Shown here: piece after piece, positions 2,204 through 18,081 of the stretch
Numbering within the stretch: the first letter of the stretch is position 1
Layout: each line of letters opens with the position of its first letter
Assembly: GCA_037441385.1 (NCBI GenBank)
Contig: JBBISH010000102.1
Span: 1-23,396 of the forward strand
DNA from: Myxococcales bacterium
GTDB taxonomy: Bacteria > Myxococcota_A > UBA9042
Direction: 5' to 3'
Length of the DNA stretch: 23,396 nt
The notes under the pieces: model-generated
Seen by the model: only the letters and a program-made list of their open reading frames with translations
Told to the model about the DNA's origin: nothing
The model's database searches: none
Program-made: the position numbers and the translations under genes

Positions 2204-2236
2204 GCGCAGTTGTCCACCCTCTGGCAGAGGGACTTG

Positions 2237-2330
2237 TGCGAAATCCGAATGATTCGTCTCGTCAACCTTGGCAATTCCTCGGGTGGCGAGCCGGGGTCCC
2301 CGGCGGATTCTCGGCGGCTGCACAACGGGG
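2237..2330 (+). repeat. Degenerate partial copy of MITE family A
   Basis: tgcgaaatccgaatgattcg...ggcaattcctcggg...ccggggtccccggcggattctcggcggctgca aligns to the 5' two-thirds of the 132-bp element. Confidence 0.65.
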
Positions 2331-2513
2331 CACGACGGCCTCGTGGCCACCGGCGGCAACTTGGCAGCAACTTGGGGGGCATTCTCTGAGCCCTGGTCCG
2401 CTTGGGGCCTGCGCAAACTCAGGGGGCATGGGCGAGCGCGCGACCCTTGCGCGACGCCGGCCGGCACCGTACCCTGCGCGCCGGCGCCCCCCGCCGCGCC
2501 ACGGAGGATCGCA

Positions 2514-3287: not shown

Positions 3288-3633
3288 GCGCGGCGCGTGG
3301 GCTGGCCGCGGAACTCTGGCGACCTCTGAAGTGGCGACACGGAAAAGCTCAGCAAAACAGCGCATTGTCTGCATAGTGTTTGACGGGCTTGCTGTGCTGC
3401 GTTACAGGCATCACTGGACCGGGGTGTGCAGGCGCGGGCAGCCAAGACCAATCTCCAGATAGAGACGGCCAAGGGGGGCGCGTGGCCCCTTGGGAGCCCG
3501 ACGTGCGACGGCCAGCATGGGCGCCTGCTTCGACGTGACGGTCTTTGCAGACGCCGTTTGCCGGCTGGGCGCGTGGAACTGGCCAAACGATCATTGCGCT
3601 GCTACGCAGGCCAGCGCACGCAAGGAGGACAGC

Positions 3634-4416
3634 GTGGGAATCGAGTTGGAGCCAAAGCCGAAACCGCAGACCAAACCCAATGCCGCCGCCGAGGCACTGC
3701 CCAGCTGGAAGAAGGCTGTGCGGCCCGGCAGCAACTACGCCGAGGCGCGCGAAGCGCTTTCGCCCAACGGCAAGCCCACCCTTGGCGCCCACCGTGGCAG
3801 CGCTCCTTCGGGCCCCACCTCGGCGCCGGCGTCGGGCGTCCGCATCGGCGGCCACCGCGAGCGCCAATCGCCCGTTGCGACCACGACCGGTGCCGTCGCG
3901 TCGGGTGTCGGCCCTGCCACCAGTCAGGCCCACGGCGTGGCATCGGGCACGACCAAGGCCCAGGTGCCGCAAGCCGGTGAGATCATTGCGGGGTCGCAGG
4001 CCAAGACGACCGAGCTGAATCGAGCCGCGAGCCAATCGCCCTCCGGCTCCGCCAACAGCCACGGCGCGATCGAGGCCAAGGGGCGGTTCGAAGGCGGGGC
4101 CCAGCCCCAGCAGACCAAGAAAGGCAACAAGTTCATGGCTATGGCCCAGTTACTGACCAAGGCGAGCGAGCCCACATCGGGACCCAAGTCGCAGCGCCCC
4201 GAAGACTACACGGATCCCCATGTATGGGCGGCCGTGCTGGTGCCCGACGACGACCGGCAATACCGGAGCATCGTAGAGAATCTGCGGCACAAACACCGCG
4301 ACAACGGCACCGTGGGGAGCATCAACGCCGCTTGGGAGGCCGGTCAGGCCCGCCTGGAGCTGGCCAAAGAGCGCTGGGCCAAACACCCCGACCACGCCAA
4401 GCGGCAGGTCATCTAG
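3634..4416 (+). CDS. Hypothetical protein with a low-complexity N-terminal half
   Basis: AAGGAGG RBS directly before the in-frame GTG at 3634 within ORF 3490..4416; genome-like codon bias. Confidence 0.65.
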   Translation: MGIELEPKPKPQTKPNAAAEALPSWKKAVRPGSNYAEAREALSPNGKPTLGAHRGSAPSGPTSAPASGVRIGGHRERQSPVATTTGAVASGVGPATSQAHGVASGTTKAQVPQAGEIIAGSQAKTTELNRAASQSPSGSANSHGAIEAKGRFEGGAQPQQTKKGNKFMAMAQLLTKASEPTSGPKSQRPEDYTDPHVWAAVLVPDDDRQYRSIVENLRHKHRDNGTVGSINAAWEAGQARLELAKERWAKHPDHAKRQVI

Positions 4417-4726: not shown

Positions 4727-4804
4727 TGCGGAATCCGTCTGAATCGGCTCGAAAACTCCGGCAATGCTCCAAGCCCGAACCGGGGTCCCCGCCTGATTCT
4801 CGCC
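4727..4804 (+). repeat. 5' part of MITE family A
   Basis: tgcggaatccgtctgaatcggctcgaaaactc...cccgaaccggggtccccgcctgattctcgcc; preceded by TCA, diverges after 4804. Confidence 0.8.
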
Positions 4805-5020
4805 AGAACCACCGAAACTCACGCCGTATCGGAGCAAGATAGCCAGAACTCGAGCAGGCCCGACCGGTTCGGCACTCCCACGCTCAACGTGTACCCAAAT
4901 TCTGGCGGCGCCAAATGACGCGCCGCGCCAAGTCGCACAGGACGGCAGTGCTGCAGGGCTTTCGATCAAGTCTGGGGTGCGCGCCAGGATCCACCGCCGA
5001 AATTCGTCCCGGCCGCCGAT

Positions 5021-5080
5021 CCCCGCTGAGAAGCAGTCCACTGGACTGCTTTTCTGGCCTGCGGCCACCACGGGGACCCC
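5021..5080 (-). repeat. Family D micro-element, copy 1
   Basis: Absent from the other B copy; contains hairpins aagcagtcc-act-ggactgctt and tggcc-tgc-ggcca inside a ccccg/cgggg outer stem. Confidence 0.7.
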
Positions 5081-5145
5081 TGGATGCAAATCAAGGCGCA
5101 AGGAGCGGAGCGACTGAGGCGACCTAGCGGTCGCCGCAGGGAGAA

Positions 5146-5206
5146 GGGCCCCAGCGGTCGCCCGAAGGGTGAACGGGTCGCCCCAGTGGGGCAACCCGTA
5201 GCTGGG
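5146..5206 (+). repeat. Family D micro-element, copy 2
   Basis: Absent from the other B copy; cccagc/gctggg outer stem, ccc-gaa-ggg hairpin, cgggtcgcccc-agt-ggggcaacccg hairpin. Confidence 0.7.
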
Positions 5207-5397
5207 ACGACGCAGCAACGCCGAGTTGCGCCCTAAGCGGCGGATCGGGGGCGCGTGCCTTTACTTGCGCCACGGGGGCAACAGGCGTAACGTCGCCGCG
5301 ACCCTCGGGCTTGGCGACGCGATCCCAAGCCGCGTGGCCCGATGCGCCAGCCGTGGCGCGGCGAGGCTCTCGTGCTCTCTAGCGTACTGCCCACATA

Positions 5398-5529
5398 TAC
5401 CAATTCCGTCCGAATCGGATCGAAAACTCGGGCAATTCTTCGGGCCCGAACCGGGGTCCCCGCCTGATTCTCGCCAGTTGCAGAACGGGTCAGAAAGGCT
5501 GTACAGGCGCGAATCAGGTGGGGTGCGGA
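5398..5529 (+). mobile_element. Full-length MITE family A (132 bp)
   Basis: Collinear with 19825..19956 and with the reverse complement of 17774..17905. Confidence 0.85.
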
Positions 5530-5535
5530 TTAGAC

Positions 5536-7476
5536 ATGGAAGTCACGTGGCTGTTCGGGACTAGCTTGGCGGCGCTGACCGCGGCCATGACGGTGGCGCG
5601 TGCCCGTCCCAACCTGAGCGTGTATGCCCTGGCGATCGCGGCCGCGAGCTTGCTGGGCGCCGCGCTCACGGCCCTTGCCACTGCCATTACCTGGGATTTG
5701 CAGTTGCCGGGCTCGCTGGGCGGCCAGCCCATGCACCTGCAGCTCGATCCCCTTGGCGCGCTGTTCATGGCGGTCGTGGCAGTGGTCGGCGGCGCAGGCG
5801 CCTGGTATGCGCGCGGCTATTGGTCGCACGCAGAGCGCGGCGATTCCTCTGTAGCTGGGCGGCGTTGGTGGGCAGTGTTCATGGCCAGCCTGGTGTGGGT
5901 CATCTTGGCTCGCAACGGCCTGCACTTCTTGCTGGGCTGGGAGTTGTTCAGCGTCGCGGCCTACTTCCTGGTCTCGCTCGACAGCGAGGACGCCGAGGCC
6001 CGCCGCGCCGCCTGGCTGTATTTGGCCGCCTCGCACCTCACTACCGCCGTGCTCTTCGGCTTGTTCGCCGCGCTGGCCAACCTGACCGGCAGCTGGGAGC
6101 TGGGGCCGGTTCGCGATCCGCGGGCCAGTGGCTTGTTTTGGCTAGGTCTTTTGGCCTTTGGCGTCAAGGGCGCCACGTGGCCCGGTCATGTGTGGCTGCC
6201 CAGCGCCCACGCCAACGCACCCAGCCACGTGTCGGCGCTGCTGAGCGGCGCGGCCATCAAAATCGGCATGTACGGCCTCTATCGCCTGACCGAATGGCTG
6301 CCGCTGCCCAACTCAGCAGGTTGGGTCATCGCCGGCTTGGGCGTCACCAGCGGCGTGCTGGGCGTGGCTTTTGCGCTGGCACAGCATGACCTCAAGCGAC
6401 TTCTGGCCTACCACAGCGTCGAGAACATCGGCATCATCTTGATCGGCTTGGGCTTTGGCATCGTCGCCCGCCAGCACGGCCACCCGGCATGGGGCACCCT
6501 GCTGGTGGTCGGGTCGCTACTGCACGTCTGGAACCACGCGCTGTTCAAAGCATTGTTGTTTCTGGGCGCCGGAGCGATTCACCATGCCACGGGCACGCGC
6601 GTCATGAGTCAGCTGGGCGGTTTGTGGCGCGGGATGCCGGCGACGAGCGCCCTGTTTGCCCTGGCGGCCATGGCGATTGCTGGCTTGCCGCCGCTGAACG
6701 GCTTTGTCAGTGAACTACTGATCTACATTGGGCTTTTTGACGAATTCGCCGCCGGTCAGAGCGCCTATGCTGCTGCCGGGGGCGCGGTGCTGCTGGGTTT
6801 GACGGGTGCGCTGGCGCTGGCCTGTTTCGCCAAGGTCGTCGGGGTGGTCCTGCTCGGCTCGCCGCGTTCGCCCGCCGCCGAACATGCCCACGAGGCCGGC
6901 AGGGATCTGCTGCAGGCGATGGGAGTTCTAGCCAGTTTGTGCGCAATTATTGGCCTGTTGCCGGGCGCCGTTTGGCCGCTGGTCGCAACCGCGGCGGGCC
7001 AGTGGTACGGGCTGGCGCCGCAGCCCACTCCGCAGCTGTTGACGCACCTGGGCACGCTGCACGTGGCCCTGGCGGCGGCGGGAGTGACCGCCGGGGTCGT
7101 GCTGTGGAAGCGCCTGTCGCGCATGGGGTTCCGCCGAGCGCCCACCTGGGATTGCGGGTACGCCGCGCCCACGCCGCGCATGCAGTACACCGCCGGCTCG
7201 TTCGCCCGCATCATGACCGAGTGGTTTCGCTGGATTTTGCGCCCCGAGTGCCACGCCGCGCCACTCAGCGCCCCCTTTGCCGCGCCCGCGCACGCCGACG
7301 AGCACACGCCCGAGACCGTGTTGAAGCTGGCGATCGAACCCACGGCGGGCGCCTTGCTGTGGCTGGCCGACCTTGCCCGGCGCCTGCAGCATGGCCGCGT
7401 GCAAGCCTATGTGCTGTATGTATTGATCGGCGTCGCCTTTATCGCGGCGCTCGCCATCTACGGCGGTGGGCCATGA
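5536..7476 (+). CDS. hyfB: Ehr/hydrogenase-4 component B-like antiporter subunit (NuoL/MrpA-D family)
   Basis: WELFSVAAYFLV, KGATWPGHVWLPSAHANAPSHVSALLSG, DLKRLLAYHSVENIG, HALFKALLFLGAG, TWDCGYAAPTPRMQYT motifs. Confidence 0.92.
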   Translation: MEVTWLFGTSLAALTAAMTVARARPNLSVYALAIAAASLLGAALTALATAITWDLQLPGSLGGQPMHLQLDPLGALFMAVVAVVGGAGAWYARGYWSHAERGDSSVAGRRWWAVFMASLVWVILARNGLHFLLGWELFSVAAYFLVSLDSEDAEARRAAWLYLAASHLTTAVLFGLFAALANLTGSWELGPVRDPRASGLFWLGLLAFGVKGATWPGHVWLPSAHANAPSHVSALLSGAAIKIGMYGLYRLTEWLPLPNSAGWVIAGLGVTSGVLGVAFALAQHDLKRLLAYHSVENIGIILIGLGFGIVARQHGHPAWGTLLVVGSLLHVWNHALFKALLFLGAGAIHHATGTRVMSQLGGLWRGMPATSALFALAAMAIAGLPPLNGFVSELLIYIGLFDEFAAGQSAYAAAGGAVLLGLTGALALACFAKVVGVVLLGSPRSPAAEHAHEAGRDLLQAMGVLASLCAIIGLLPGAVWPLVATAAGQWYGLAPQPTPQLLTHLGTLHVALAAAGVTAGVVLWKRLSRMGFRRAPTWDCGYAAPTPRMQYTAGSFARIMTEWFRWILRPECHAAPLSAPFAAPAHADEHTPETVLKLAIEPTAGALLWLADLARRLQHGRVQAYVLYVLIGVAFIAALAIYGGGP

Positions 7477-8396
7477 TCGACGACGCCTTCGGGCTAGCCG
7501 AACTGGTCGGCCGGGCGCTGCTTTGGGCGCTGCTCGCGCCGCTGGTGCCGGGCATCGTGGGCCGCACCAAGGCGCTGATCGCAGGTCGGCGTGGTCCGCC
7601 GGTTCTCCAGTTGTATTACGACCTTGCGCGCCTCTGGCACAAGGAGGTCGTTTGGTCGCAAGTGGCCTCGCCCGTGCATGTGCTGGCCCCGGCGGTGGCG
7701 TGGGTGGCGGTGCTTGGGGCGGCGCTGCTGCTTCCGGTGGGCCGCCCGCATGGCGGGGTCGATCTGCCGGGCGGAGCGCTGATCCTGGTGTACTTGCTGG
7801 CGCTGGCGCGCTTTGCCACGGCGACGGCGGCGATGGACACGGGCTCGGCCTTTGAGGGCATGGGCGCGGCCCGCGAAGTCAGCTATGCGGTACTCAGCGA
7901 AGTTGCCATCATTACCGGACTTTTGGCGTTAGGCGTCCGCGGCGGCTCGGCCTCGCTGCCCACGATGCTGGCGGCGTCGGGCGGCGTTGGCGCAGCGCTG
8001 TTGGCGGCGGGGCTCTTCACCGTGCTGCTGGCCGAGAATTGCCGAGTGCCCTTCGACGATCCCAACACCCACCTGGAGCTGACGATGGTCCACGAGGTGA
8101 TGGTGCTGGATCACAGCGGCCCGCCGTTGGCGGTGATCCTGCACGGCGCGGCGCTAAAACTCACGCTTTTCGCGGTGTTGCTGGTGCAGGCCGTAGTGCC
8201 GCTGGGCCGGTTGGCGCCCTGGCCAGCACTGGGCCTTGTGGCTGCAGCGGTACTGGCGGTCGCCGTGGCGGTGGGCCTGGTCGAGTCGCTGGTAGCCCGT
8301 CTGGCCTTCCGGCGGGTGCCGTTGCTGCTCACTACGGCGTTTCTGCTCAACCTTTTTGCCCTTCTCGTCGAAGTCGAGGGCGGACAGCTGCCATGA
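7473..8396 (+). CDS. hyfC: Ehr/hydrogenase-4 component C-like membrane subunit (NuoH/HycD family)
   Basis: GRRGPPVLQLYYDLARL, SAFEGMGAARE, AENCRVPFDDPNTHLELTMVHE; ATGA overlap with the upstream gene. Confidence 0.92.
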   Translation: MIDDAFGLAELVGRALLWALLAPLVPGIVGRTKALIAGRRGPPVLQLYYDLARLWHKEVVWSQVASPVHVLAPAVAWVAVLGAALLLPVGRPHGGVDLPGGALILVYLLALARFATATAAMDTGSAFEGMGAAREVSYAVLSEVAIITGLLALGVRGGSASLPTMLAASGGVGAALLAAGLFTVLLAENCRVPFDDPNTHLELTMVHEVMVLDHSGPPLAVILHGAALKLTLFAVLLVQAVVPLGRLAPWPALGLVAAAVLAVAVAVGLVESLVARLAFRRVPLLLTTAFLLNLFALLVEVEGGQLP

Positions 8397-9034
8397 CCGG
8401 GACCGTCAACCTGCTCATCGGCATCGCCGCCGGCCTGAACTTGATGGCGCTGGCCAGCAGTCGCCTGCCCTCGATGATCCGGGCGGCCGCGTTGCAGGGC
8501 CTGGTGCTCGGCGTGCTGCCCCTGCTCATCGAGACGGAGTGGACGCCGCTGTTGCTCCTCACCGCCATCGGCACGGCCGCCGCCAAAGGCTTCGTCATAC
8601 CCACCTTATTACGTAGGGCGATCCGCGCTGCCGCTATCGACCGCGAGGTCGAGCCGCTCATCGGCTTTGTGCCGTCGCTCTTGCTGGGGGCCTTGGCGAC
8701 GATTTTGGCTATGATGTTCGCTCGTTTGCTGCCCATGCGCCCTGAGCACACTGGTACGCTCTTGTTGCCCGGCGCGTTCGCTACCGTGGCCTGCGGCGCG
8801 CTGCTGATCATGGTCCGCAGCAAGGCCATCTCCCAGGTCTGTGGTTACCTGGTGCTCGAAAATGGCGTGTATCTACTTGGCCTTCTGCTGCTCGGCTCTA
8901 CGCCGCTGCTGGTCGAGGCCGGCATCCTGCTCGATCTCACCGTGGCGATTTTCGTCATCGGCATCGTGGTCGACCGCATTCAACGGGCGTTCGACTCGCT
9001 TGACACCCGCAACCTGACGGAGCTGCACGAATGA
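8393..9034 (+). CDS. hyfE: Ehr/hydrogenase-4 component E-like membrane subunit
   Basis: KAISQVCGYLVLENG...PLLVEAGILLD...FDSLDTRNLTELHE; ATGA overlaps at both ends. Confidence 0.9.
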   Translation: MTGTVNLLIGIAAGLNLMALASSRLPSMIRAAALQGLVLGVLPLLIETEWTPLLLLTAIGTAAAKGFVIPTLLRRAIRAAAIDREVEPLIGFVPSLLLGALATILAMMFARLLPMRPEHTGTLLLPGAFATVACGALLIMVRSKAISQVCGYLVLENGVYLLGLLLLGSTPLLVEAGILLDLTVAIFVIGIVVDRIQRAFDSLDTRNLTELHE

Positions 9035-10470
9035 GGGCGGTGGCGCTGGTGGCTGTGCCCGGTGCGGCGGCGCTGACGGCGCTGGCGTGGCCCAAAGCCG
9101 AGACGCGGCCTTGGCTTTTGCCAGGGACTGCGGTGATCCACGCCGGCTTGGCTCTGTCGCTGCTGGTGGCGCCCACCTCGGTCCAGGCGACCCATTGGCT
9201 GGGCAACGATGTGCTGGCGCGGGCGGTGCTACCGGCGATTTCGCTTCTGTTTTTGCCGGCTTCGCTCTACACGGTGGCCTATTTGCGGCTGCGACCCGAG
9301 CGAGACAACCGGGTCTTTGTCGCCGCCTTGCTCGGCGTGTTGGGGCTGCTGAGCCTGGCGGTGCAGGCGCAACACCTGGGCCTGTTGTGGGTAGCGGCGG
9401 AAGCGGCGACGCTCGTGACCGTGCCGCTGCTGCACTTCAACCGCTCGGCGCGCGCCTACGAGGCCACCTGGAAATACCTCCTGGTCGGTGGCACCGGTTT
9501 GGCCCTGTCGCTCATGGGGTCATTCTGCTTGGGTTACGCGTCGTTCCAAGCGGGCGGTGCGGGCGACCTGACATTTTTGTCACTGGGCAGCCAGGTGCGC
9601 CAGCTGTCGACGCCGTGGCTCACGCTCGCGTGGGTGCTCCTGCTGGCTGGCTACGGGACCAAGATGGGCGTGGCGCCGATGCACACCTGGAAGCCCGACG
9701 CCTATGGCGAGGCCCCGGGCATCGTCGGCGCGGTACTCGCGGGCGGCATGACCACCATGGCCTTTGTCGCCGTGCTGCGGGTGCGGGCGCTGGTCGACGC
9801 GGCGGTCGGGCCGGGTCTGACCAGCCGGACTCTGCTGGGTATTGGCCTGCTGTCGATGGCCCTGGCGGCGCTTTTCCTTTTGCGTACCAAGGATTTCAAG
9901 CGGCTGCTCGCCTACTCGAGCGTGGAGCACATGGGCATCTTGGCCATCGGCGCTGCGCTGGGCCCCCTCGGCACCTTGGGCGCGCTGTACCACACCTGGA
10001 CCAACGCCCTGACCAAGGGGGCTTTGTTCTTTGCAGCCGCCAACTTGCGCAGGGTCGGTGGCGGTCGAACCGCCGACGAGGTGGGCGGCTTGGCGCGCTT
10101 GGCCCCAGCGTCGGTTGGGGTGCTGGTGGCTGGCCTGTTTGCCGTCACCGCCTGCCCGCCGTTTGGCATGTTCTACTCCGAACTGCAGATTTTGCGCGCG
10201 GCCTTTGCCACTGACCACGCCGGCGTCGCCGCATTCTTCTTGTTCTGCCTGCTACTTGCCTTCTTGGGCATGAGCCGCTTGGTGTTCGCCATCGCCTACG
10301 GTCCCACGCGCATCCAGGGCACGTTCGACCCGGCGATGCGCGACCGCGCCGGGGTGATCGTGCCGCCGCTGCTGTGCCTTTTGGCCGCGCTGTGGTTGGG
10401 GGCCGCGCCGCCGTCGCTGCTCACCCAGACCTGGCAGGCGGCCGCGCAGTGGCTGGGAGGGCAGCCATGA
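9031..10470 (+). CDS. hyfF: Ehr/hydrogenase-4 component F-like antiporter subunit
   Basis: EATWKYL, GYGTKMGVAPMHTWKPDAYGEAP, DFKRLLAYSSVEHMG motifs. Confidence 0.92.
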   Translation: MRAVALVAVPGAAALTALAWPKAETRPWLLPGTAVIHAGLALSLLVAPTSVQATHWLGNDVLARAVLPAISLLFLPASLYTVAYLRLRPERDNRVFVAALLGVLGLLSLAVQAQHLGLLWVAAEAATLVTVPLLHFNRSARAYEATWKYLLVGGTGLALSLMGSFCLGYASFQAGGAGDLTFLSLGSQVRQLSTPWLTLAWVLLLAGYGTKMGVAPMHTWKPDAYGEAPGIVGAVLAGGMTTMAFVAVLRVRALVDAAVGPGLTSRTLLGIGLLSMALAALFLLRTKDFKRLLAYSSVEHMGILAIGAALGPLGTLGALYHTWTNALTKGALFFAAANLRRVGGGRTADEVGGLARLAPASVGVLVAGLFAVTACPPFGMFYSELQILRAAFATDHAGVAAFFLFCLLLAFLGMSRLVFAIAYGPTRIQGTFDPAMRDRAGVIVPPLLCLLAALWLGAAPPSLLTQTWQAAAQWLGGQP

Positions 10471-11942
10471 GCGAAGTGCGCGCGTGGCTTGAGAATCCTG
10501 GCGCCCTGCCCTGGCAGGCGGTGCCCGAGCGGACCGCCGATCAGTTGGTGGCCGAGACCGCTGAGGCGCTGCAAGCGGGCGCTCGCCTGTCGGCCTGGTT
10601 GGGCGTGCCCGCCAATGAAGGCGTGGTGATCGTTGCGGTTCTCGCCTTCGACGCGGAGCACCGCCTGGGCGTCGCGCGCAGTCGGCCGCTGCGGGGCGGC
10701 CTGCCGTCGCTGACGCGGCAGTGTGCCGAGGCGCAGTTGTTCGAGCGCGAGCTGTGGGAACTCCATGATCTCACACCGTTGGACCACCCGTGGCTCAAGC
10801 CCGTGCGGCGCATCCCCGGCACCGACGGGGCGCCCGTCCCCTTCTATGCGCTGGACGGCGGCGAGGTGCACGAGGTCGCGGTCGGGCCGGTCCACGCCGG
10901 CATCATCGAACCTGGGCATTTCCGTTTCCAGTGCCAAGGCGAGCAGGTGCGACACCTGGAAATTGCCTTGGGTTATCAGCACCGCGGCGTCGAGGCGGCG
11001 CTGCTGCGTGCCCGACCGCCGGCAGCGTGGGCGATGATCGAGACACTGGCCGGCGACACCAGCATCGGTCACGGCAGCGCCCATGCTTTGCTCCGCGAGG
11101 CGCTCTCTGGGACTCAAGTGCCGGCGCGGGCTCACTATTTGCGGGCGTATGCCTTGGAGCTCGAACGGCTGGCCAACCACACCGGCGACCTGGGCGCCCT
11201 GGCCAACGACGTGGCTTTTCAGCCCACTGCGGCGGCCTGTGGCAAGCTGCGCGGCGATTTCTTGAACCTTACTGCAACCTTGTGCGGCAATCGTTTTGGG
11301 CGTTCCTGGCTGCGGCACGGTGGCGTGCGCTTCGACCTTGACGATGCGCGGCGCCGCGACTCGATCGACCGCCTGCACCAGTCCCTGCACGAGGTCGAAG
11401 ATGCGGCGCGCTGGCTGTGGGCGAGCGGCTCGGTCCGCGCCCGCTTCGACCTCACCGGGCAAGTCGCGGGCGCAATGGCCAAAGAAATCGGTCTGGTGGG
11501 CGTTGCCGGCCGCGCGTCGGGGCGCACTTGCGATGTGCGGGTGGACCACCCGACCGGCGCCTACGTGGCCCTGCCCATGACCGCGCAAGTCGACAGCTTG
11601 GGCGACGTGGCGGCCCGTGCGTCGGTGCGTCGCCACGAGATCCACGAAACGGCCCAGTTTCTGGAACGTTTGCTGAACAACCTGCCGAGCGGCCCAGTGA
11701 CCGAGTCGTCCGCGCCGCTGGCCGGTGACCGGCTGGGTGTGGCACTGGTCGAGGGCTGGCGTGGCGAGATCTGTCACGTTGGCCTGACGAATTCGTCTGG
11801 AGGTTGGCGCAGTTACAAAGTCGTCGATCCCTCGTTCCACAACTGGCTGGGACTGGCGATGGCGCTGCGCGATCAGGCCATCTCGGACTTCCCTCTCTGC
11901 AACAAGAGCTTCAACCTGTCCTATTGCGGACACGACCTGTAG
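10467..11942 (+). CDS. hyfG: Ehr large subunit (NuoC/D-like fusion, HycE/HyfG homologue lacking the NiFe-binding CxxC motifs)
   Basis: FERELWE, HEVAVGPVHAGIIEPGHFRF, LGYQHRGVE, ELERLANH, VEGWRGE, DPSFHNW, SDFPLCNKSFNLSYCGHDL. Confidence 0.9.
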   Translation: MSEVRAWLENPGALPWQAVPERTADQLVAETAEALQAGARLSAWLGVPANEGVVIVAVLAFDAEHRLGVARSRPLRGGLPSLTRQCAEAQLFERELWELHDLTPLDHPWLKPVRRIPGTDGAPVPFYALDGGEVHEVAVGPVHAGIIEPGHFRFQCQGEQVRHLEIALGYQHRGVEAALLRARPPAAWAMIETLAGDTSIGHGSAHALLREALSGTQVPARAHYLRAYALELERLANHTGDLGALANDVAFQPTAAACGKLRGDFLNLTATLCGNRFGRSWLRHGGVRFDLDDARRRDSIDRLHQSLHEVEDAARWLWASGSVRARFDLTGQVAGAMAKEIGLVGVAGRASGRTCDVRVDHPTGAYVALPMTAQVDSLGDVAARASVRRHEIHETAQFLERLLNNLPSGPVTESSAPLAGDRLGVALVEGWRGEICHVGLTNSSGGWRSYKVVDPSFHNWLGLAMALRDQAISDFPLCNKSFNLSYCGHDL

Positions 11943-11946
11943 GGCC

Positions 11947-12720
11947 ATGTATTCGCTTGAGATCCTTGCCCGCCGCCTGCGCATCGGCAGCCAGACCATG
12001 GCGTTTCCCCGCGGTCCGGCGCCGGGTCTGCCCGACCGCCACGGCGGGACATTACGCCTAGATTCAGAGCATTGCGCCGCCACGTGCCGCGCCTGCACCG
12101 AGGTCTGCCCCACGGCCGCCATCGTGCCCGCGGCGCCCACCGTGCTCGATTTGGGCCGCTGCCTGTTCTGTGGCGCGTGCGTCGACGCGTGCCCGAGCGG
12201 TGCCGTTGCCCACACGGGCGATCACCGCATGGCCGCGCGCAGTCTCGCCGATTTGCGCATCGGCGGCCCCCACGGCCACGAGCTGCGGCAGGCCACTGAA
12301 CTGGGCGACGAGCTTCGCCAATTGCTCGGCCGCTCGCTCAAGCTGCGGCAGGTGAGCGCCGGCGGCTGCAACGCCTGCGAAGCCGATCTCAACGTGCTGG
12401 GCACCATCGGCTGGGACCTCGGCCGCTTCGGCATCCAGTTCGTCGCCTCGCCGCGCCACGCCGACGGCCTGGTGCTGACGGGCCCCGTGCCGCCCAACAT
12501 GGCCCTGGGCTTGCGGAAAACCTGGGACGCCATCCCCGGTCCCAAGATCGCCATCGCTGTCGGCGCGTGCGCCATCTCGGGCGGGCCATTCGGCGCCGAG
12601 ACCTGCGGCCACCAAGGCGCGACGGGCACTCCGCTGGCCATCGATCTGTACATCCCGGGCTGCCCGCCACATCCGCTGACGATCCTGGAGGGAATTCTCA
12701 GGGTTCTCAAGCGCTTGTAG
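11947..12720 (+). CDS. hyfI: Ehr small subunit: 2x[4Fe-4S] ferredoxin fused to a NuoB/HyfI-like domain
   Basis: CxxxCxxCxxxCP and CLFCGACVDACP, then GGCNACEAD, SPRHADG, GACAISGG, YIPGCPPHP. Confidence 0.88.
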   Translation: MYSLEILARRLRIGSQTMAFPRGPAPGLPDRHGGTLRLDSEHCAATCRACTEVCPTAAIVPAAPTVLDLGRCLFCGACVDACPSGAVAHTGDHRMAARSLADLRIGGPHGHELRQATELGDELRQLLGRSLKLRQVSAGGCNACEADLNVLGTIGWDLGRFGIQFVASPRHADGLVLTGPVPPNMALGLRKTWDAIPGPKIAIAVGACAISGGPFGAETCGHQGATGTPLAIDLYIPGCPPHPLTILEGILRVLKRL

Positions 12721-12727
12721 TCCACCT

Positions 12728-12880
12728 GGGCATTTCTACCCCGCATTCTTCTCTTTGAACCCAGGTCGTGCTGGTTTGGGGCAGCACGCGTTCGATCCGC
12801 GGCCGCTGTGGCGCCACGATCGGCGTGGTGGCTGCGCCTTGGAAGTCATCGTGCTCGAAATACAGCGGTGCAGAAAGGGG
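12728..12880. repeat. Degenerate element with family C-like ends
   Basis: Starts gggcatttctaccccgcattct (cf. 22869 gggccattctctaccccgcattct); ends gcggtgcagaaa, an imperfect inverse of tttctaccccgc. Confidence 0.4.
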
Positions 12881-12939
12881 ATTTGGCGATTCTCCAGAGC
12901 GTGAAGGTCGGGCCAGCAGTGGCGGCGCGCAACGGCCTC

Positions 12940-12968
12940 TTGACTTTTGGACCGGTCGGTCCTAAAGT
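12940..12968 (+). promoter_or_regulatory. Sigma70-type promoter overlapped by a TetR operator palindrome
   Basis: TTGACT(12940)-17 bp-TAAAGT(12963); inverted repeat acttttggaccg-gt-cggtcctaaagt (11/12 match) spans 12943..12968. Confidence 0.8.
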
Positions 12969-12974
12969 GAGCTC

Positions 12975-13562
12975 ATGACGATCGGCAGACCACTCGAATT
13001 CGATCCCGACGAGGCCCTGGGCGCCGCGGTGCAGGTGTTTTGGTCCAAGGGATACCAGGCCGCCTCCCTGACCGACCTGCTCGAAGCGATGACCTTGTCC
13101 AAGAGCAGCCTCTACCAGGCTTTCGGCGGCAAGCGGGAGCTTTTCGAGCAGAGCGTGGGTCGGTACGTCGACGAACTCTCGGCGGTGATGCTCGCCAGGC
13201 TCGACGCGACCGACTCGGGCCGCCGCTTCATCGAGGAGACCTTCTTTGGCGTTGCCCACACGGCCGGCCAAGCCGCTGGGGGCCGCGGCTGCCTGCTGGC
13301 CAACTCGGCGTCGGAGTTGGGCCAGCGCGACCCGGGCCTGGCTGCGCACGTGGCCCGCGGCATGGAGCGCTTCGCCGCCATCTTTTGCACCGCGATCGAG
13401 CGGGGGCAAGCCGCTGGCGAGATCACCAACGGGATCAGCGCGCCGGTTCTTGCCACCTACCTGCTCGCCTGCATGAACGGCCTGCGCACCATGATCAAAG
13501 CCGGCGCAACCTGCCACGCCGCCTGCGAAGTGTGCGCGTTGATGCTGCGGCCGCTCGACTAA
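12975..13562 (+). CDS. TetR/AcrR-family regulator (NemR/ComR-like, Cys-containing C-domain)
   Basis: GRPLEFDPDEALGAAVQVFWSKGYQAASLTDLLEAMTLSKSSLYQAFGGKRELF HTH; RGCLLANSASEL. Confidence 0.93.
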   Translation: MTIGRPLEFDPDEALGAAVQVFWSKGYQAASLTDLLEAMTLSKSSLYQAFGGKRELFEQSVGRYVDELSAVMLARLDATDSGRRFIEETFFGVAHTAGQAAGGRGCLLANSASELGQRDPGLAAHVARGMERFAAIFCTAIERGQAAGEITNGISAPVLATYLLACMNGLRTMIKAGATCHAACEVCALMLRPLD

Positions 13563-13638
13563 CCGTTCCCTGACAACCCGTGGGCCATTCGGTTCCACCC
13601 GACCGTAGCGATTGCTTGACCACCAAGGAGACCGATCC

Positions 13639-14481
13639 ATGGAGACCGCCGCCGTGCCGAATACGACTAAGACGACCCAACTGCCCTACGACTTCGACCA
13701 CCCCCGGCTGTACCCGGACGTCTTCCACGACATGCACATCGGCAAGGCCGACCTTGGTCCGGGGGATGCCGTCGGTGAGTTCGACCTGCCGACCACAGAG
13801 GGCGGTCGCTTCCGTTCGAGCGACCTCCGCGCCGACGGGCGACCGGTGCTCGTCACCTTTGGCTCGCAGACCTGCCCCATCACGGAGAGCGCGGCCCCCG
13901 GACTGAAGGGGCTCCACGCCCGGTTCGGCCAGAAGATCCGCTTCGTCATGTTGGCCGTCCGCGAGGCCCACCCAGGCGCGAGTATCCCCCAGCCCCACAC
14001 GGCCGCGCAAAAGGCCAGGCACGCCCAGGCCCTCCGCGACCGCCACGCCCTGCCCTTCGAGGTCGCCGTCGACAGCGTCGACGGGGCCCTCCATCGCCGC
14101 TTGGGCTCGCGTCCGTCGAGCGCCTACTTGGTACTCCCAGACGGTACCATCGCCTTCCGCGCCCAGTGGTCCAACGAGATCGACTCGATCGCCTCGGCCC
14201 TGGAAGCCGTCACCAACAACCGGCCGGTGCCCAACCCGACCGTGACCCGCACCTACCCGGCCATGGCAAAGGCGATGGGCTTTGGCGGCCCCGTTCACCA
14301 GGCCGCCGGCAAGGGCGCGACCTTCGACACGTGGAGGATCGCGCCCCCGTTCGGCATGATCATGGCGATCTCGGGGATGCTGTTCTTCTTGCCGGTGGAG
14401 CGGCGCGGCGGCGTCGCCATGGCCGTGATGATGGCCGGTAGCCTGGCCGCCGGCATCGCCGTGGTCCTCGCCTTCTCTTGA
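13639..14481 (+). CDS. Iodothyronine-deiodinase-like thioredoxin-fold protein (Cys form) with C-terminal TM segments
   Basis: AAGGAG RBS; RPVLVTFGSQTCP and VREAHP match the deiodinase FGSxT(U/C)P / EAHP signature; hydrophobic C-terminus. Confidence 0.8.
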   Translation: METAAVPNTTKTTQLPYDFDHPRLYPDVFHDMHIGKADLGPGDAVGEFDLPTTEGGRFRSSDLRADGRPVLVTFGSQTCPITESAAPGLKGLHARFGQKIRFVMLAVREAHPGASIPQPHTAAQKARHAQALRDRHALPFEVAVDSVDGALHRRLGSRPSSAYLVLPDGTIAFRAQWSNEIDSIASALEAVTNNRPVPNPTVTRTYPAMAKAMGFGGPVHQAAGKGATFDTWRIAPPFGMIMAISGMLFFLPVERRGGVAMAVMMAGSLAAGIAVVLAFS

Positions 14482-14527
14482 CCGCCGGCTGCAGGCCTTG
14501 GACCAGCGCGCGGTGCGCGACGTGGAC

Positions 14528-14660
14528 AATGGAATCCTTCTGAATCGGCTCGACAGACTTCGGCGATTCTTCGGGCTCGAAGCGGGGTCTCTGCCTGATT
14601 CTCGCCGGTTGCAGACCGGAGCAGAGAGCCCGCACAGGCGCGAACCAGACGGGGTTCGTA
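14528..14660 (+). mobile_element. MITE family A, diverged full-length copy (133 bp)
   Basis: Collinear with the other copies; ends ...agacggggttcgta followed by TCA. Confidence 0.8.
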
Positions 14661-14794
14661 TCAGGGGCACTCTTTGTGGCAGCACGATGATGCGGATTCC
14701 TTTGGACGCGACCAATTACTGGATATTCGTTGAGTAATTGGCGTGCCGGCCGCGTCTCCAGCTCCAAGCGGACCGCAACCACGGCGCTCATCGT

Positions 14795-15940
14795 CTACAG
14801 CAGCCGTCGCTTCACCAGCGCGAACAGGTCGGCGTTCGTGGGGCGCATCACGCATGGCAGAAAGCCGTGGGCGATTCCCTTGGGGTTGGGGCAATCGCTG
14901 GGATCGGTCATCTCCTGGGTGGTCGTCACGCGCAGGGCGGCCGTCGCTCCCGCGCCGACAAGGGCCTCGTAGAGACCGCTCGCCTGCGACAATGGCACAA
15001 TCGGATCGTTTGGCTCTTGTGCTTGAACGAGCAGGACCTCTCCGCTGGGCGTGCAGGCATGGGCCGTCGGCGAGGCGTCGACGCAACGGTCGCAGGCTCG
15101 GCCGGCGCCACAGGCACCAAGCGGCGTGGCACAAGTGCTGCGGGCCTCCAGATTCACGGCCGACGCGACGGGGCTCGCAGACGCGGCGAACGCCGGCAGG
15201 TCGTAGACGCCCGAGACGCCGACCGCCGCCACGACGCCCGGCGCTGCGTTGCTGCACTGCGGGTCCAGGTCCGCACGGTCGCGCGTCAACGCGGTCATGA
15301 GCGCAAGGTGCGCCCCCGCCGACTCCCCGATGATGCCGATGCGGGTGCCGTCCACACCGTAGTCTGCCGCTCGCTGGGCAATCCACTGCACGGCGCACTT
15401 GACGTCCATCACGTTGTTGGGAAACGCACCGCCTTCCTCGACGAGCCGATACTCGATGTTGAAGGTCGGCACGCCATAGAATTTGGCCCACGCTTGGGCG
15501 TACACCGCGACCGCGTCCCTTCTCCGCTTGCAGTCGGCAAAGCCTCCGCCATGCACGACGACCAGAACCCCGGGCTTCTGCGGCGTCGCCTGCGAGGGCG
15601 GGAGATAGAGATCGCCAACCAGGACGCGACCTCCGCGTGTCGCGTATGCAAGGTTTTCGTGGGCACGGACGCCGTCGAACGCACCGGTGAGAATCGTGTC
15701 CTTTGGGGCAGGGGCCGTAGACGTCGGGCCGCCGGGCTCGGCACATCCCTGGTCGGTGAGAGGCTGGCCGTCCTCTGTCCACGCACAAGACGCCGTCTCA
15801 GCGCCGTCCGCGCCGCCCACCTCGGGGTTGCCCGCATCGCCGTCGGCGACGGCCACGGAGTGGGCGCCAGGTTGGGCCTCTTCTGGGGTGCACTGAACAC
15901 CGCAGAGCAGCGCGGTCGCGACAAGGATCCTTCGCTTCAT
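14795..15940 (-). CDS. Exported alpha/beta hydrolase (HSL/BD-FAE-type esterase), probable lipoprotein
   Basis: VVHGGGF oxyanion motif, GESAG nucleophile elbow, NDPIVP, AHGF; signal peptide MKRRILVATALLCGVQC. Alternative start at 15970. Confidence 0.88.
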   Translation of the reverse strand: MKRRILVATALLCGVQCTPEEAQPGAHSVAVADGDAGNPEVGGADGAETASCAWTEDGQPLTDQGCAEPGGPTSTAPAPKDTILTGAFDGVRAHENLAYATRGGRVLVGDLYLPPSQATPQKPGVLVVVHGGGFADCKRRRDAVAVYAQAWAKFYGVPTFNIEYRLVEEGGAFPNNVMDVKCAVQWIAQRAADYGVDGTRIGIIGESAGAHLALMTALTRDRADLDPQCSNAAPGVVAAVGVSGVYDLPAFAASASPVASAVNLEARSTCATPLGACGAGRACDRCVDASPTAHACTPSGEVLLVQAQEPNDPIVPLSQASGLYEALVGAGATAALRVTTTQEMTDPSDCPNPKGIAHGFLPCVMRPTNADLFALVKRRLL

Positions 15941-15979
15941 CGAGTCGGTTCGCGCGACGGCTGCGCGCATGGCCCACTC

Positions 15980-16009
15980 AACCTATGTCGGTGTGGTCGT
16001 ATTCGTCAA
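15980..16009 (-). promoter_or_regulatory. Candidate sigma70 promoter for the hydrolase
   Basis: Minus strand TTGACG-18 bp-TAGGTT just upstream of the gene. Confidence 0.4.
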
Positions 16010-16100
16010 CCGGCAAGCGGGCACGCCCAGAAGTTCCGGCTCACTCGGCAAGCTACGTCTCTTACCTCACGAGCGGCGCCCCGCCTGGAGTTCGACTGGG

Positions 16101-16352
16101 GGGCATCTTCTACCCATTCTTCTCCCAGACAATTTGGGCGTCCCGGACCGGCGACGATGGGCGCTGGAGGAGTCGGCAAGCGCTTGCGCCGGCCCGTCGC
16201 GCTCCGGCCGCCGGTCGAAGCAGGGGCAGGCGAAATCCGAAGTGGCCTGCTCCCGGCGGTGGCGACGCTCCGCCGCGCCGCCACCCCAGCGGGGCCTGGA
16301 TCGCTGACGCGGGCGGGGAATTCGCAGTGGTTCTGATGGGTAGAAAGTGCCC
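16101..16352 (+). mobile_element. Family C TIR element (~250 bp), complete
   Basis: 17-bp TIR GGGCATCTTCTACCCAT / ATGGGTAGAAAGTGCCC (15/17); internal blocks tttgggcgtcccgg, gctcccggcggtggcg, cgccgccacccc and atcgctgacgcggg shared with the 20344 and 22869 copies. Confidence 0.75.
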
Positions 16353-16436
16353 GGTAGGAAGTGCCCGGCATTGGTTGCAGGCCGGTGGGGTAGGCGTCCC
16401 TGCCTTACCGGTTGCTGTCTCTGCCGCCGCGTCGAA

Positions 16437-16624
16437 TGGCCCTCACCCCCGGCCTACGGCCGCCCCCTCTCCCACTGAAGTGGGCGAGGGGTAAAGGGAA
16501 ATTGCATTGCCCCTCGCCCAAAGCGTTGGGAGAGGAGGGGTCCCCGCGGTGAGCGAAGCGAACAAGTGGCGCCAGCGGCGCCGGGAGAGCGGGGCTGCCG
16601 CCGCAGGCGGCGGGGTGAGGGCCA
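16437..16624. repeat. REP-like long hairpin of the CCCTCACCCC...CCTCTCCC / GGGAGAGG...GGGGTGAGGG type
   Basis: Perfect 13-bp terminal IR tggccctcacccc/ggggtgagggcca; inner IR gggcgagggg/cccctcgccc; lies 70 bp downstream of the 17414..16695 gene. Confidence 0.8.
16537..16594 (+). repeat. Family D micro-element, copy 3 (inside the REP-like hairpin)
   Basis: ggggtccccgcggtgagcgaagcgaacaagtggcgccagcggcgccgggagagcgggg: same ends and hairpin order as D1 (reverse complement) and D2; breaks the host's symmetry. Confidence 0.6.
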
Positions 16625-16694
16625 AGTGCCAAGGATCGCACAGGTTTCCAACACACTTACGGCGTCAGTAGCTATCCGGTAAGCCAGGTACGCG

Positions 16695-17414
16695 TCACTC
16701 CCCCAAAGCCGCCAACACCCGCTCGGCCAGCGCCTTCCACGCTCGGGCGCGCTCGCGGTTGACCTGGCGCTGCCGCTCGCCCCAGCCCGCGGCCTCGGCG
16801 GCGATGCGCTCGGCGTCGAGGCCCTGGAACGCCTTGTGCGCCGCCGCCAAATGCCGAACCGTGGTCGAGGTGCGCTTGCGACCGCGGCGCGGCTTGTCGG
16901 CCGGGAACGTCTTGGCGATCGCCTCGCTCAGCTGCCGCGCCGTCAGCTCTTCGGCGATGGCGACCTCGGCCATCTGCTGGCGCCGCGCCGGGTCGGCAAG
17001 GGGCAGCAGCACGCGGTGGTGGTCGACGCTGAGGCTCCAGGCGGTCTGGGCGTCCATGTGCAGCAGCTGCTCGCCCACGCGCACCAGCACCCGCAGCGCG
17101 TCGGCCGACATCGCTAGGTCGGGGTGCAGACACAGCGCCTCGAAGGCTGGGCGCTTGCTGTGGCGCGGGTTGGTGTACAGGTCCCAACGGCCGTCGCAGA
17201 ACTCGTCGAGCACATAGCGGTGGACCTCGACCGCGGTGCGCAGCCCGGCGTGCAGCGTGGTGCGGTTGAGGGTGCGGACGGCTTGCTCGACCTGGGCTTG
17301 CTCGGCCGCGGGCAAGGCGCTGAACAGCGACTCGAAGGTCGGGAGCGGTCGGGCCGGCGGGCGGCCGTGGTGGGTGGTGGGCACAAGCTCTCCGGTGGGT
17401 GTCGGGCTGGTCAT
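16695..17414 (-). CDS. Hypothetical DNA-binding protein, DUF1016 N-terminal (YhcG_N)-like, no nuclease domain
   Basis: AGGAG RBS; LSVDHHRVLLPLADPARRQQMAEVAIAEELTARQLSEAI resembles the LSWSHH..LL...D...R..Y...A....WSVRxL motif; basic patch KPRRGRKR. Confidence 0.7.
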   Translation of the reverse strand: MTSPTPTGELVPTTHHGRPPARPLPTFESLFSALPAAEQAQVEQAVRTLNRTTLHAGLRTAVEVHRYVLDEFCDGRWDLYTNPRHSKRPAFEALCLHPDLAMSADALRVLVRVGEQLLHMDAQTAWSLSVDHHRVLLPLADPARRQQMAEVAIAEELTARQLSEAIAKTFPADKPRRGRKRTSTTVRHLAAAHKAFQGLDAERIAAEAAGWGERQRQVNRERARAWKALAERVLAALGE

Positions 17415-17507
17415 GGCTGCTCCTGGGCGGTGCGGTGGTTGCGCTCGATGCCCTGGCGGTCATGGTGGCGCACGGCGAAGATTTTGTCCAAGTGGCTGCG
17501 ACCCCGT

Positions 17508-17653: not shown

Positions 17654-17723
17654 TGGCCAAGTCGTCGCGAAGTCGTTGCAATGTTGTCGCAAAGCAGCTG
17701 CCCAGGATCCACCATCGAACGTC

Positions 17724-17987
17724 GCCCCGGCCGCCGATTTGGGATGCAAATCAAGGCGCAAGGAGCGGAGTGATACGAACCCCGTCTGATTCACGCCTGT
17801 ACGGCTTCTCTGACCCGGTCTGCAACCGGCGAGAATCAGGCGGGGACCCCGGTTCGAGCCCAAAGAATTGCCCGAGTTTTCGATCCGATTCGGACGGAAC
17901 TGGTATGACTGAGGCGACCTAGCGGTCGCCGCAGGGAGAGTAGCGACACAGCAACGCCGAGTTGCGCCCAAAGCGGCGGATCGGGGC
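17724..17987 (+). mobile_element. Family B TIR element carrying a nested MITE A
   Basis: Imperfect TIRs gccccggccgccgatttgggatgcaaatc / gagttgcgcccaaagcggcggatcggggc; 264 - 135 = 129-bp core. Confidence 0.8.
17774..17905 (-). mobile_element. Full-length MITE family A with a 3-bp TGA target duplication
   Basis: ggag-TGA-[tacgaac...ctggta]-TGA-ctgagg versus the empty site ggag-cga-ctgagg at ~5107..5119. Confidence 0.9.
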
Positions 17988-18081
17988 TGCAAAAGTGGCT
18001 GGTCAGGCGCGGCGTTTGCGTGTATCCTCTCGCCCCCTCGCGCGACACCGCTTGGGTCTGGAGTGCAGCATGGGCAGGCAA

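What the first reader, a model, noticed from the sequence alone, without database searches (positions are those of the whole stretch)
5021..16594. Family D: ~58-nt micro-element conserved in structure, not sequence, found only inside other repeats
Seen: three copies (5021..5080 minus, 5146..5206, 16537..16594) share the layout GGG(T/C)CCC(C/A)G(C/T)GGT - hairpin with a C-GNA-G triloop (gca, gaa, gaa) - hairpin with a CC-AG(T/C)-GG tip - AGC(G/T)GGG. The stems covary: outer ccccg/cgggg versus cccag/ctggg; second stem aagcagtcc/ggactgctt, cgggtcgcccc/ggggcaacccg, ggcgcc/ggcgcc. Two copies have an empty site in the window (+58 and +59 bp). Established: C-GNA-G triloops such as GCGAAGC are exceptionally stable in single-stranded DNA, and HUH/Y1 enzymes (IS200/IS605 TnpA, RAYT) recognise ssDNA hairpins. 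Inference: a three-way-junction ssDNA or RNA module mobilised by a structure-reading enzyme. This is my best candidate for an undescribed system here, resting on only three hand-aligned copies.
Basis: partly seen in the sequence, partly recalled or inferred. Interest (0 to 1): 0.75.

Follow-up and report, generated by a model that had tools for sequence, protein, structure and literature searches.

The report
Small three-hairpin repeat in intergenic DNA
Three copies of a roughly 60-base DNA element that keeps the same three-stem fold while its stem sequences differ sit between genes of an uncultured bacterium; it looks like a new variant of the small palindromic repeats known from many bacteria, but three copies are too few to show how it moves.

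Summary
Three elements (5020-5081 minus, 5145-5207 plus, 16536-16595 plus) share GGGYCCCMGYGGT, a C-GNA-G triloop hairpin, a CC-AGY-GG tipped hairpin and AGCKGGG. The 13-mer occurs 3 times against 0.04 expected.

A covariance model built from copy 2 alone finds copy 1 at 41 bits. A sequence-only model from the same copy does not find it at all. So the likeness is structural. Copy 3 is weaker: short stems, and a fold no better than shuffles.

Copies 1 and 2 are absent from a 94%-identical paralogous repeat (net +58 and +59 nt), with no target duplication and no long terminal inverted repeat.

No further copy turned up: none in the window, none real among 78 chance-level pattern hits in 185,579 species genomes, and none in Rfam, plasmids or phages. 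The window is a whole 23-kb metagenome contig, so the rest of the genome was out of reach. No transposase, HUH or RT gene is detectable.

Best reading: a lineage-specific, REP/BIME-like structured repeat module gained or lost as a unit. The structure-reading HUH enzyme is an untested inference. "Only inside other repeats" holds for 2 of 3 copies.

The parts
5020..5081 (-). Copy 1. Outer stem 5070-5076 with 5020-5026. Hairpin 1 5055-5067 (GCA triloop). Hairpin 2 5028-5054 (12 pairs, one A.C mismatch, AGT triloop).
   Evidence: (41 bits, E 7.8e-10 to a model built from copy 2 only)
5145..5207 (+). Copy 2. Outer stem 5150-5155 with 5201-5206. Hairpin 1 5158-5172 (GAA triloop). Hairpin 2 5173-5199 (12 pairs, one C.A mismatch, AGT triloop).
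16536..16595 (+). Copy 3, the weak one. Outer stem 16542-16547 with 16589-16594. GCGAAGC mini-hairpin within 16550-16562. Hairpin 2 core 16568-16582 (6 pairs, AGC triloop).
   Evidence: (17.3 bits)
4984..5250 (.). Host repeat A, which carries copies 1 and 2 in opposite orientation, 63 nt apart.
17702..17986 (.). Host repeat B, the paralogue with empty sites at 17739-17741 (for copy 1) and 17940-17943 (GTAG, for copy 2). Without its nested insert it folds as one long hairpin, 17725-17986.
17771..17905 (-). A 134-nt MITE (family D1) nested in host repeat B and absent from A. It has terminal inverted repeats and a flanking TGA on both sides. Its core shares GGGGTCCCCG...CGGGG with Family D.
5122..5145 (+). 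Host segment directly 5' of copy 2 that resembles the 5' half of copy 2 (about 20 of 25 nt, including GCGGT and a C-GCA-G tip). The paralogue is at 17916-17939.
   Evidence: 7.7 bits, E 0.13; the best non-self hit of the sequence-only model

Best explanation
Family D is a lineage-specific, non-coding, structured DNA repeat of the REP/BIME kind. It is a 57-63 nt module of a 6-7 bp outer stem, a short C-GNA-G triloop hairpin and a longer CC-AGY-GG tipped hairpin.

Shown: the fold; the conservation of termini, junction and loop tips while the stems turn over with pairing kept; and the gain or loss of the module as a discrete unit inside a hairpin-rich intergenic repeat, with no target-site duplication and no long terminal inverted repeat.

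Inferred: the module is recognised in folded single-stranded form (either strand folds) by a trans-acting enzyme encoded elsewhere in the genome. That enzyme would read the conserved unpaired and tip nucleotides plus the shape, as RAYT/IS200-type HUH enzymes do with REP hairpins and IntI does with attC. It would insert or excise the module at hairpin-rich sites. The identity of the enzyme is not shown.
For: The motif is enriched: 3 matches against 0.04 expected.

The structure-aware model from copy 2 finds copy 1 at 41 bits and copy 3 at 17.3 bits, with the next hit at 13.3 bits. The sequence-only model from the same copy misses copy 1 at E<=10 and gives copy 3 only 2.7 bits. BLAST links copies 1 and 2 by nothing.

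The folds of copies 1 and 2 are significant on both strands and with both RNA and DNA parameters.

12 of 24 pairs change on both sides and 93.7% of cells are paired, against 75% in shuffles and 33-44% in slid controls.

Termini-matched chance sequences lack the inner layout in 78 of 78 cases.

The filled and empty sites lie in host repeats whose shared blocks match at 134 of 142 positions. The two inserts are only about 56% alike, so they are not copies of each other.

A second element (the D1 MITE) is nested in the same host repeat, so this host is a landing site. REPs inserted within other palindromic repeats and in mosaic intergenic regions are described in PMC3733652 (section 7 read).
Against: There are only three copies, one of them weak.

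No further copy was found in the window, in 1.16 Mb of other loci, or among the 78 pattern hits in 185,579 species genomes. Those 78 match my uniform-composition estimate of about 82 chance hits.

No near-identical 'master' copy of copy 1 or copy 2 is seen, although both insertions would be recent.

No candidate enzyme is in the window.

The direction of change (insertion into A or loss from B) cannot be told.

At both sites 2-4 nt (TG of TTG, and GTAG) differ between the filled and empty forms, so the junctions are not clean.

The 5' half of copy 2 resembles the host sequence right next to it. This could mean local duplication rather than transposition.
Confidence: 0.45

Rival explanations
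1. Passive mosaic module. The hairpins arise and are lost through replication slippage, template switching or gene conversion among hairpin-rich intergenic repeats, with no dedicated enzyme. They persist because stable hairpins are tolerated or mildly useful, for example in transcript stabilisation.
For: The whole intergenic space here is built of stable hairpins and repeat modules. The 5' half of copy 2 resembles the immediately adjacent host segment (E 0.13 window-wide, but directly adjacent). The junctions are not clean. No enzyme gene was found.
Against: Random palindrome formation would not give the same 13-nt and 7-nt termini, the same two loop tips and the same spacing in three places with unrelated stems. 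0 of 78 termini-matched controls have the inner layout, and the motif occurs 3 times against 0.04 expected. No flanking direct repeats explain a slippage deletion giving the B form.
Confidence: 0.2
2. A relative or miniature derivative of the 134-nt D1 MITE, or a carrier of the same protein-binding palindrome GGGGWCCCC. It would be bound or moved by the machinery that serves D1.
For: GGGGWCCCC occurs 7 times against 0.33 expected. All 7 are in D1/D2 repeats (5) or Family D (2). The family model aligns 5 D1-family cores to the frame GGGGTCCCCG - 12-bp stem - CGGGG at 10.1-15.3 bits.
Against: Those scores are at chance level (E 0.1-1.5), and all D1-family copies together are one independent observation. 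Family D lacks D1's roughly 19-nt terminal inverted repeats and its flanking TGA. D1 lacks hairpin 1 and the CCAGYGG tip.
Confidence: 0.12
3. A structured RNA: a small RNA, a cis-regulatory element or a ribozyme that happens to be multicopy.
For: The pattern of conserved junction and loop nucleotides with covarying stems is the classic signature of a structured RNA. The RNA folds of copies 1 and 2 are significant.
Against: There is no Rfam match at gathering score in the window, nor any match overlapping all three elements at E<=10 around them; the few weak, far-sub-threshold hits there are chance-like. Copies lie in both orientations relative to each other and to neighbouring genes. Wobbles and mismatches are split 2:2 between strands. 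The junction strands (GG, 0-1 nt, 1 nt) are too short for a hammerhead core. Presence or absence inside a young repeat pair is not expected for a regulatory RNA.
Confidence: 0.1
4. Chance resemblance among GC-rich hairpins.
For: The window is 67% G+C and full of hairpins. Copy 3 folds no better than shuffles.
Against: See: the motif is 75 times over expectation, copy 1 scores 41 bits against a maximum of 20 bits in 78 termini-matched controls, and 0 of 78 controls have both inner motifs.
Confidence: 0.03

Closest known systems
REP / REPIN elements with RAYT (TnpA_REP) transposases, and BIME mosaics
   Same: Short, GC-rich, extragenic, hairpin-forming. No terminal inverted repeats or target duplication. 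Copies in inverted orientation close together (copies 1 and 2 are 63 nt apart). Inserted within other palindromic repeats and mosaic intergenic regions (PMC3733652: abstract and section 7 read; PMC3116915 and PMC2817692: abstracts seen in the listing).
   Different: REPs are 20-40 bp single stem-loops with an unpaired GTAG or CGTC tag (PMC3733652 abstract). Family D is 57-63 nt with three helices, and 0 of 3 copies have such a tag at an end. As I recall (no call), REP copies within a genome are alike in sequence, whereas copies 1 and 2 here share almost only structure. No RAYT gene was seen, and copy number is unknown.
Integron attC sites
   Same: The same logic of structure conserved and sequence not conserved, with recognition of a folded single strand (PMC2727003: abstract seen in the listing).
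   Different: I saw no RYYYAAC/GTTRRRY core sites on reading the three copies (consensus recalled from my own knowledge). The fold is a three-way junction instead of one long imperfect hairpin with extrahelical bases. There is no cassette ORF association. No integrase domain was found.
IS200/IS605-derived miniature elements (palindrome-associated transposable elements)
   Same: No inverted terminal repeats and no target duplication. Subterminal hairpins are read as ssDNA by a Y1 HUH transposase (PMC6006769: abstract seen in the listing).
   Different: As I recall (no call), those elements carry distinct left-end and right-end hairpins and insert 3' of a fixed 4-5 nt target. Here a single closed junction is present, and no common target is visible across the 2 sites with an empty form. 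GGGAGA lies 5' of copies 2 and 3 only.
Classical bacterial MITEs, such as the D1 element in this same window
   Same: Small, non-coding, nested in other repeats, with presence/absence polymorphism.
   Different: MITEs have terminal inverted repeats and target duplications. D1 has them (about 19-nt repeats and a TGA on both sides). Family D does not.

Membership tests
REP (repetitive extragenic palindrome) / REPIN | 20-40 bp imperfect palindrome forming one stem-loop | tested here: not met
   The element is 57-63 nt with three helices: an outer stem plus two hairpins.
REP (repetitive extragenic palindrome) / REPIN | Unpaired GTAG or CGTC tag at one end (PMC3733652 abstract) | tested here: not met
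   0 of 3 copies carry the tag at an end. Copy 2 has an internal GTAG at 5198-5201, and the empty site in B reads GTAG.
REP (repetitive extragenic palindrome) / REPIN | High copy number per genome | not testable with these tools
   The window is the whole 23,396-nt contig. The source genome is not in genome contigs: no locus carries the paired hits.
REP (repetitive extragenic palindrome) / REPIN | Cognate RAYT (Y1 HUH) gene, usually flanked by copies | tested here: inconclusive
   No such domain in 77 ORFs scanned with Pfam and 20 scanned with NCBIfam. Only 23 kb is available.
REP (repetitive extragenic palindrome) / REPIN | Extragenic; neighbouring copies in inverted orientation | tested here: met
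   All 3 copies lie in stretches without strong codon periodicity. Copies 1(-) and 2(+) are 63 nt apart.
MITE (DDE-transposase dependent) | Terminal inverted repeats of about 10 nt or more, and a target-site duplication | tested here: not met
   Only the 6-7 bp outer stem is present, and the 5' GGG has no mirror. There is no duplication at either of the 2 filled/empty comparisons.
Integron attC | R''/R' core sites (RYYYAAC / GTTRRRY; consensus recalled) flanking one long imperfect hairpin | tested here: not met
   I saw no such cores on reading the three copies. The fold is a three-way junction.
Any Rfam 15 family (ribozymes, sRNAs, ssDNA motifs) | A match at or near the family's gathering score | tested here: not met
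   0 matches at gathering score in the window. At E<=10, only unrelated matches far below threshold, e.g. 16 bits against a gathering score of 137.
IS200/IS605-type miniature element | Insertion 3' of a fixed tetra- or pentanucleotide; separate left-end and right-end hairpins (features recalled from my own knowledge) | tested here: inconclusive
   Only 2 sites have an empty form. The 5' flanks are GCATCC and GGGAGA, with no shared target.

The most novel reading that the evidence does not exclude
Family D is a new class of structure-defined mobile DNA. It would be a roughly 60-nt three-way-junction module recognised purely by shape plus a few tip and junction bases (attC-like logic outside integrons). 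An as yet unidentified ssDNA-acting enzyme would copy it into hairpin-rich intergenic repeats. Different 'alleles' of the stems would coexist in one genome.
Probability: 0.15. Interest if true: 0.75.

Novelty: new variant of a known kind. Interest (0 to 1): 0.4.

Why it matters
If the genome holds many such copies, this would be a REP-like family whose members within one genome are held together by fold rather than by sequence. It would also fold as a three-way junction rather than a single hairpin. That would widen what structure-reading DNA enzymes are known to recognise, and it would give a compact natural ssDNA junction built on the very stable GNA mini-hairpin.

On the present evidence it is a well-documented curiosity: three copies in one metagenome contig.

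Tried and rejected
Self-cleaving ribozymes and other known RNAs: no Rfam match at gathering score, and none overlapping the three elements at E<=10 around them. The junction strands are too short for a hammerhead core, judged by reading the sequence.

tRNA-like element: ARAGORN finds 0 genes.

attC site: I saw no core sites on reading the copies.

Terminator: no T-run after copies 2 and 3, judged by reading the sequence.

More copies by pattern in 185,579 species genomes: 78 single hits in scattered taxa, at the chance level of about 82. None has the inner layout.

More copies by covariance model: none in the window or in the 78 loci.

Relatives of the repeat-bearing regions: none in plasmids or phages, apart from one irrelevant 64-nt match inside a coding region.

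Protein-level relatives of the ORF that runs over copies 1 and 2, as a way to reach other contigs of the organism: 214 candidates, none at E<=0.001.

A candidate enzyme next to copy 3 (ORF 16672-17463, with a weak ParB-HTH match): no solved-structure or Atlas lead.

Strand assignment from wobble pairs: 2 against 2, so uninformative.

R-scape is not available, and three sequences would be too few for it.
Full report
**What is there**

The window is 67% G+C. It is the whole of a 23,396-nt metagenome contig. Its NuoCD-like protein is listed with a longest contig of 23,396, and the nearest relative is 72% identical and named by NCBI as coming from a 'Deltaproteobacteria bacterium' MAG.

The genes I could name are:
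- an Mbh/Ech-like complex, 5518-12720 (+);
- a TetR regulator and an AhpC-like protein, 12975-14481 (+);
- an esterase, 14795-15970 (-);
- an ORF with a weak ParB-HTH match, 16695-17414 (-);
- a beta-helix protein, 17962-19806 (+);
- an AIPR protein, 20875-22536 (-).

The spaces between them are packed with repeat families and stable hairpins.

**The three copies**

The motif GGGYCCCMGYGGT matches exactly three times, at 5067-5079(-), 5146-5158(+) and 16538-16550(+). The expectation is 0.04, and 0 of 100 shuffles reach three. There is no one-mismatch match, and the two-mismatch matches are at chance level (15 found, 11.6 expected).

Each copy then has four features in order:
- a hairpin closed by C-G around a GNA triloop (GCA, GAA, GAA);
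- a second hairpin tipped CC-AGY-GG;
- one unpaired A;
- AGCKGGG, which pairs back to CCCMG(Y).

**Fold**

Copies 1 and 2 fold into exactly this three-way junction as the minimum-energy and centroid structure. This holds with RNA and with DNA parameters and on either strand:
- RNA: -34.0 and -38.9 kcal/mol, z -3.2 and -3.6. The opposite strands give z -5.0 and -5.0.
- DNA: z -4.5 and -3.4.

Copy 3 does not stand out, with z from -0.2 to -0.8 and 44-77 of 200 shuffles as good. Its hairpin 1 is a GCGAAGC mini-hairpin flanked by G.A/A.G mismatches. Only 6 pairs of its hairpin 2 remain.

**Structure versus sequence**

A covariance model built from copy 2 alone, with the junction as its structure (R1), finds copy 1 at 41.0 bits (E 7.8e-10) and copy 3 at 17.3 bits (E 0.006). 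The next full-length hit scores 13.3 bits inside a coding region.

A model of the same sequence without structure (R3) does not report copy 1 among its 47 matches at E<=10, and gives copy 3 only 2.7 bits. BLAST with short words links copies 1 and 2 by nothing, and links copies 1 and 3 only by the 16-nt 5' motif.

On the model-fitted alignment (3 copies plus a reverse-strand row of copy 2's palindromic hairpin), the counts are:

| Measure | Observed | 500 shuffles | Slid controls |
|---|---|---|---|
| Cells paired | 93.7% | 75% | 33-44% |
| Pairs changed on both sides | 12 of 24 | mean 4.3 | 1-4 |

0 of 500 shuffles reach the observed values.

Between copies 1 and 2, by hand, 8 of the 12 pairs of hairpin 2 are changed on both sides and 2 are identical (the CC/GG tip). 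Each copy has one A.C mismatch.

So 'conserved in structure, not sequence' is correct for copies 1 and 2. This alignment leans towards the model, and three sequences cannot carry a formal covariation test.

**A control for copy 3**

It returned 78 single hits in scattered phyla. That is close to the roughly 82 I compute for uniform base composition.

None of these hits has the element's interior:
- By inspection of their folds, none shows two triloop hairpins.
- 71 of 78 have no perfect triloop hairpin of 5 bp or more.
- 6 of 78 have an inner CGNAG, 1 of 78 an inner CCAGYGG, and 0 of 78 both.

They score 12-20 bits with R1. Copy 3's R1 score is therefore what the termini alone give. Its membership rests on carrying both inner motifs at the right spacing. 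Copy 1 is far outside this control distribution.

The scan also shows that the source genome is not in that collection, because no locus carries the paired hits of copies 1 and 2. It further shows that the family, with these termini, is not widespread.

**Presence and absence**

A global alignment of 4960-5300 against 17678-18040 gives shared blocks of 32/37, 29/29, 33/34 and 40/42.
- Positions 5021-5080 are present only in A, where B has two extra bases. The net difference is +58 nt.
- Positions 5145-5207 are present only in A, where B has GTAG. The net difference is +59 nt.
- Positions 17771-17905 are present only in B.

The last of these is a 134-nt MITE (family D1) with roughly 19-nt terminal inverted repeats and TGA on both sides. 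The host repeat is therefore a landing site for at least two kinds of element.

Without its insert, the host folds as one long hairpin, 17725-17986. The site of copy 1 lies in its stem and the site of copy 2 lies near its apical part.

Family D shows no target duplication and no terminal inverted repeat beyond the outer stem. The junctions are not perfectly clean, since 2-4 nt differ between filled and empty forms. The direction of change cannot be told.

The host copies are about 94% alike, while copies 1 and 2 are only about 56% alike. So the two inserts are not duplicates of one another. Either two different source copies inserted recently, or B lost both.

The claim 'only inside other repeats' fails for copy 3 in this window. 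Positions 16330-16670 have no second copy, only local inverted repeats.

**Searches for relatives and for an enzyme**

- Rfam: nothing at gathering score, and nothing overlapping the three elements at E<=10 around them.
- tRNA genes: none.
- A three-copy model (R2): no new copy in the window. The best other hit is a plain 21-nt hairpin at 17.4 bits. In the 1.16 Mb of loci the top score is 24.6 bits, against 66-84 bits for the training copies.
- Plasmids and phages: nothing relevant.
- The ORF running over copies 1 and 2: no protein relatives.
- Enzyme domains: no HUH, RAYT, DUF559, reverse-transcriptase, integrase or DDE domain in 77 of the 124 ORF translations of 80 aa or more scanned with Pfam, nor in 20 scanned with NCBIfam.
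- The ORF next to copy 3: no lead from solved structures or the Atlas.

**Two leads that stay open**

First, the best non-self hit of the sequence-only model is the host segment directly 5' of copy 2 (5122-5145) and its paralogue (17916-17939). About 20 of 25 nt match, including GCGGT and a C-GCA-G tip (E 0.13). This could mean insertion next to a site that resembles the element's own 5' half. It could also mean origin by local duplication.

Second, GGGGWCCCC occurs 7 times against 0.33 expected, always in D1/D2 repeats or in Family D. R2 aligns 5 D1-family cores to the frame GGGGTCCCCG - 12-bp stem - CGGGG, at chance-level scores of 10-15 bits.

**Interpretation**

The closest known kind is the REP/BIME world: short, GC-rich extragenic hairpins without inverted terminal repeats or target duplications, often paired in inverted orientation, and sometimes inserted in other palindromes and mosaic regions (PMC3733652, abstract and section 7 read). 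Family D fails two defining REP features tested here. It is not a single 20-40 bp stem-loop, and it has no GTAG or CGTC tag at an end. Its copies are held together by fold rather than by sequence, which is the logic of attC sites (PMC2727003, abstract), although it has none of the attC core sites as I recall them.

GNA triloops closed by C-G are very stable in DNA (PMC13037366 and PMC3201870, abstracts). This fits a single-stranded DNA form but does not prove one.

I therefore rate it a new variant of a known kind. A structure-reading ssDNA enzyme is the best mechanistic analogy, but it is untested. Its rivals are passive hairpin turnover, a link to the D1 MITE, and an RNA role.

**What stayed unchecked**

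- The rest of the source genome.
- Supplements of the cited papers were not opened.
- A proper covariation test was not possible.

Noticed in passing
window 17771-17905 (-); other copies near 5396-5531, 19823-19958, 14529-14662, 4727-4860, 2264-2339: A 134-nt MITE family (D1/D2) with roughly 19-nt terminal inverted repeats (TACCAGTTCCGTC... / ...GACGGGGTTCGTA). The nested copy in host repeat B is flanked by TGA on both sides and is absent from repeat A, so the insertion is recent.
   Followed up: partly
window 20241-20574 and 22616-23101 (also 16110-16313): Repeats of about 220-330 nt (77-94% identity) flank the AIPR gene on both sides. The stretch between them is lower in G+C (0.57-0.61 against about 0.67). 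This looks like a gene set between direct repeats.
   Followed up: no
window 2293, 4782, 5072, 5453, 16537, 17842, 19880: The palindromic 9-mer GGGGWCCCC occurs 7 times against 0.33 expected, always inside repeat elements. It could be a shared protein-binding site.
   Followed up: partly
window 5122-5145 and 17916-17939: A host-repeat segment directly 5' of copy 2 resembles the 5' half of Family D (GCGGT plus a C-GCA-G tip). It could be a degenerate half-element, a target motif or the source of a local duplication.
   Followed up: partly
window 16437-16624: Copy 3 sits inside a roughly 190-nt nest of palindromes: 16437-16449 pairs with 16612-16624, there is a long hairpin at 16463-16540, and a C-GCA-G hairpin at 16597-16611. 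The fold of 16425-16635 gives z -6.1.
   Followed up: partly
window 767-4416: Several long ORFs with clear codon periodicity have no Pfam or NCBIfam match. Their function is unknown.
   Followed up: partly
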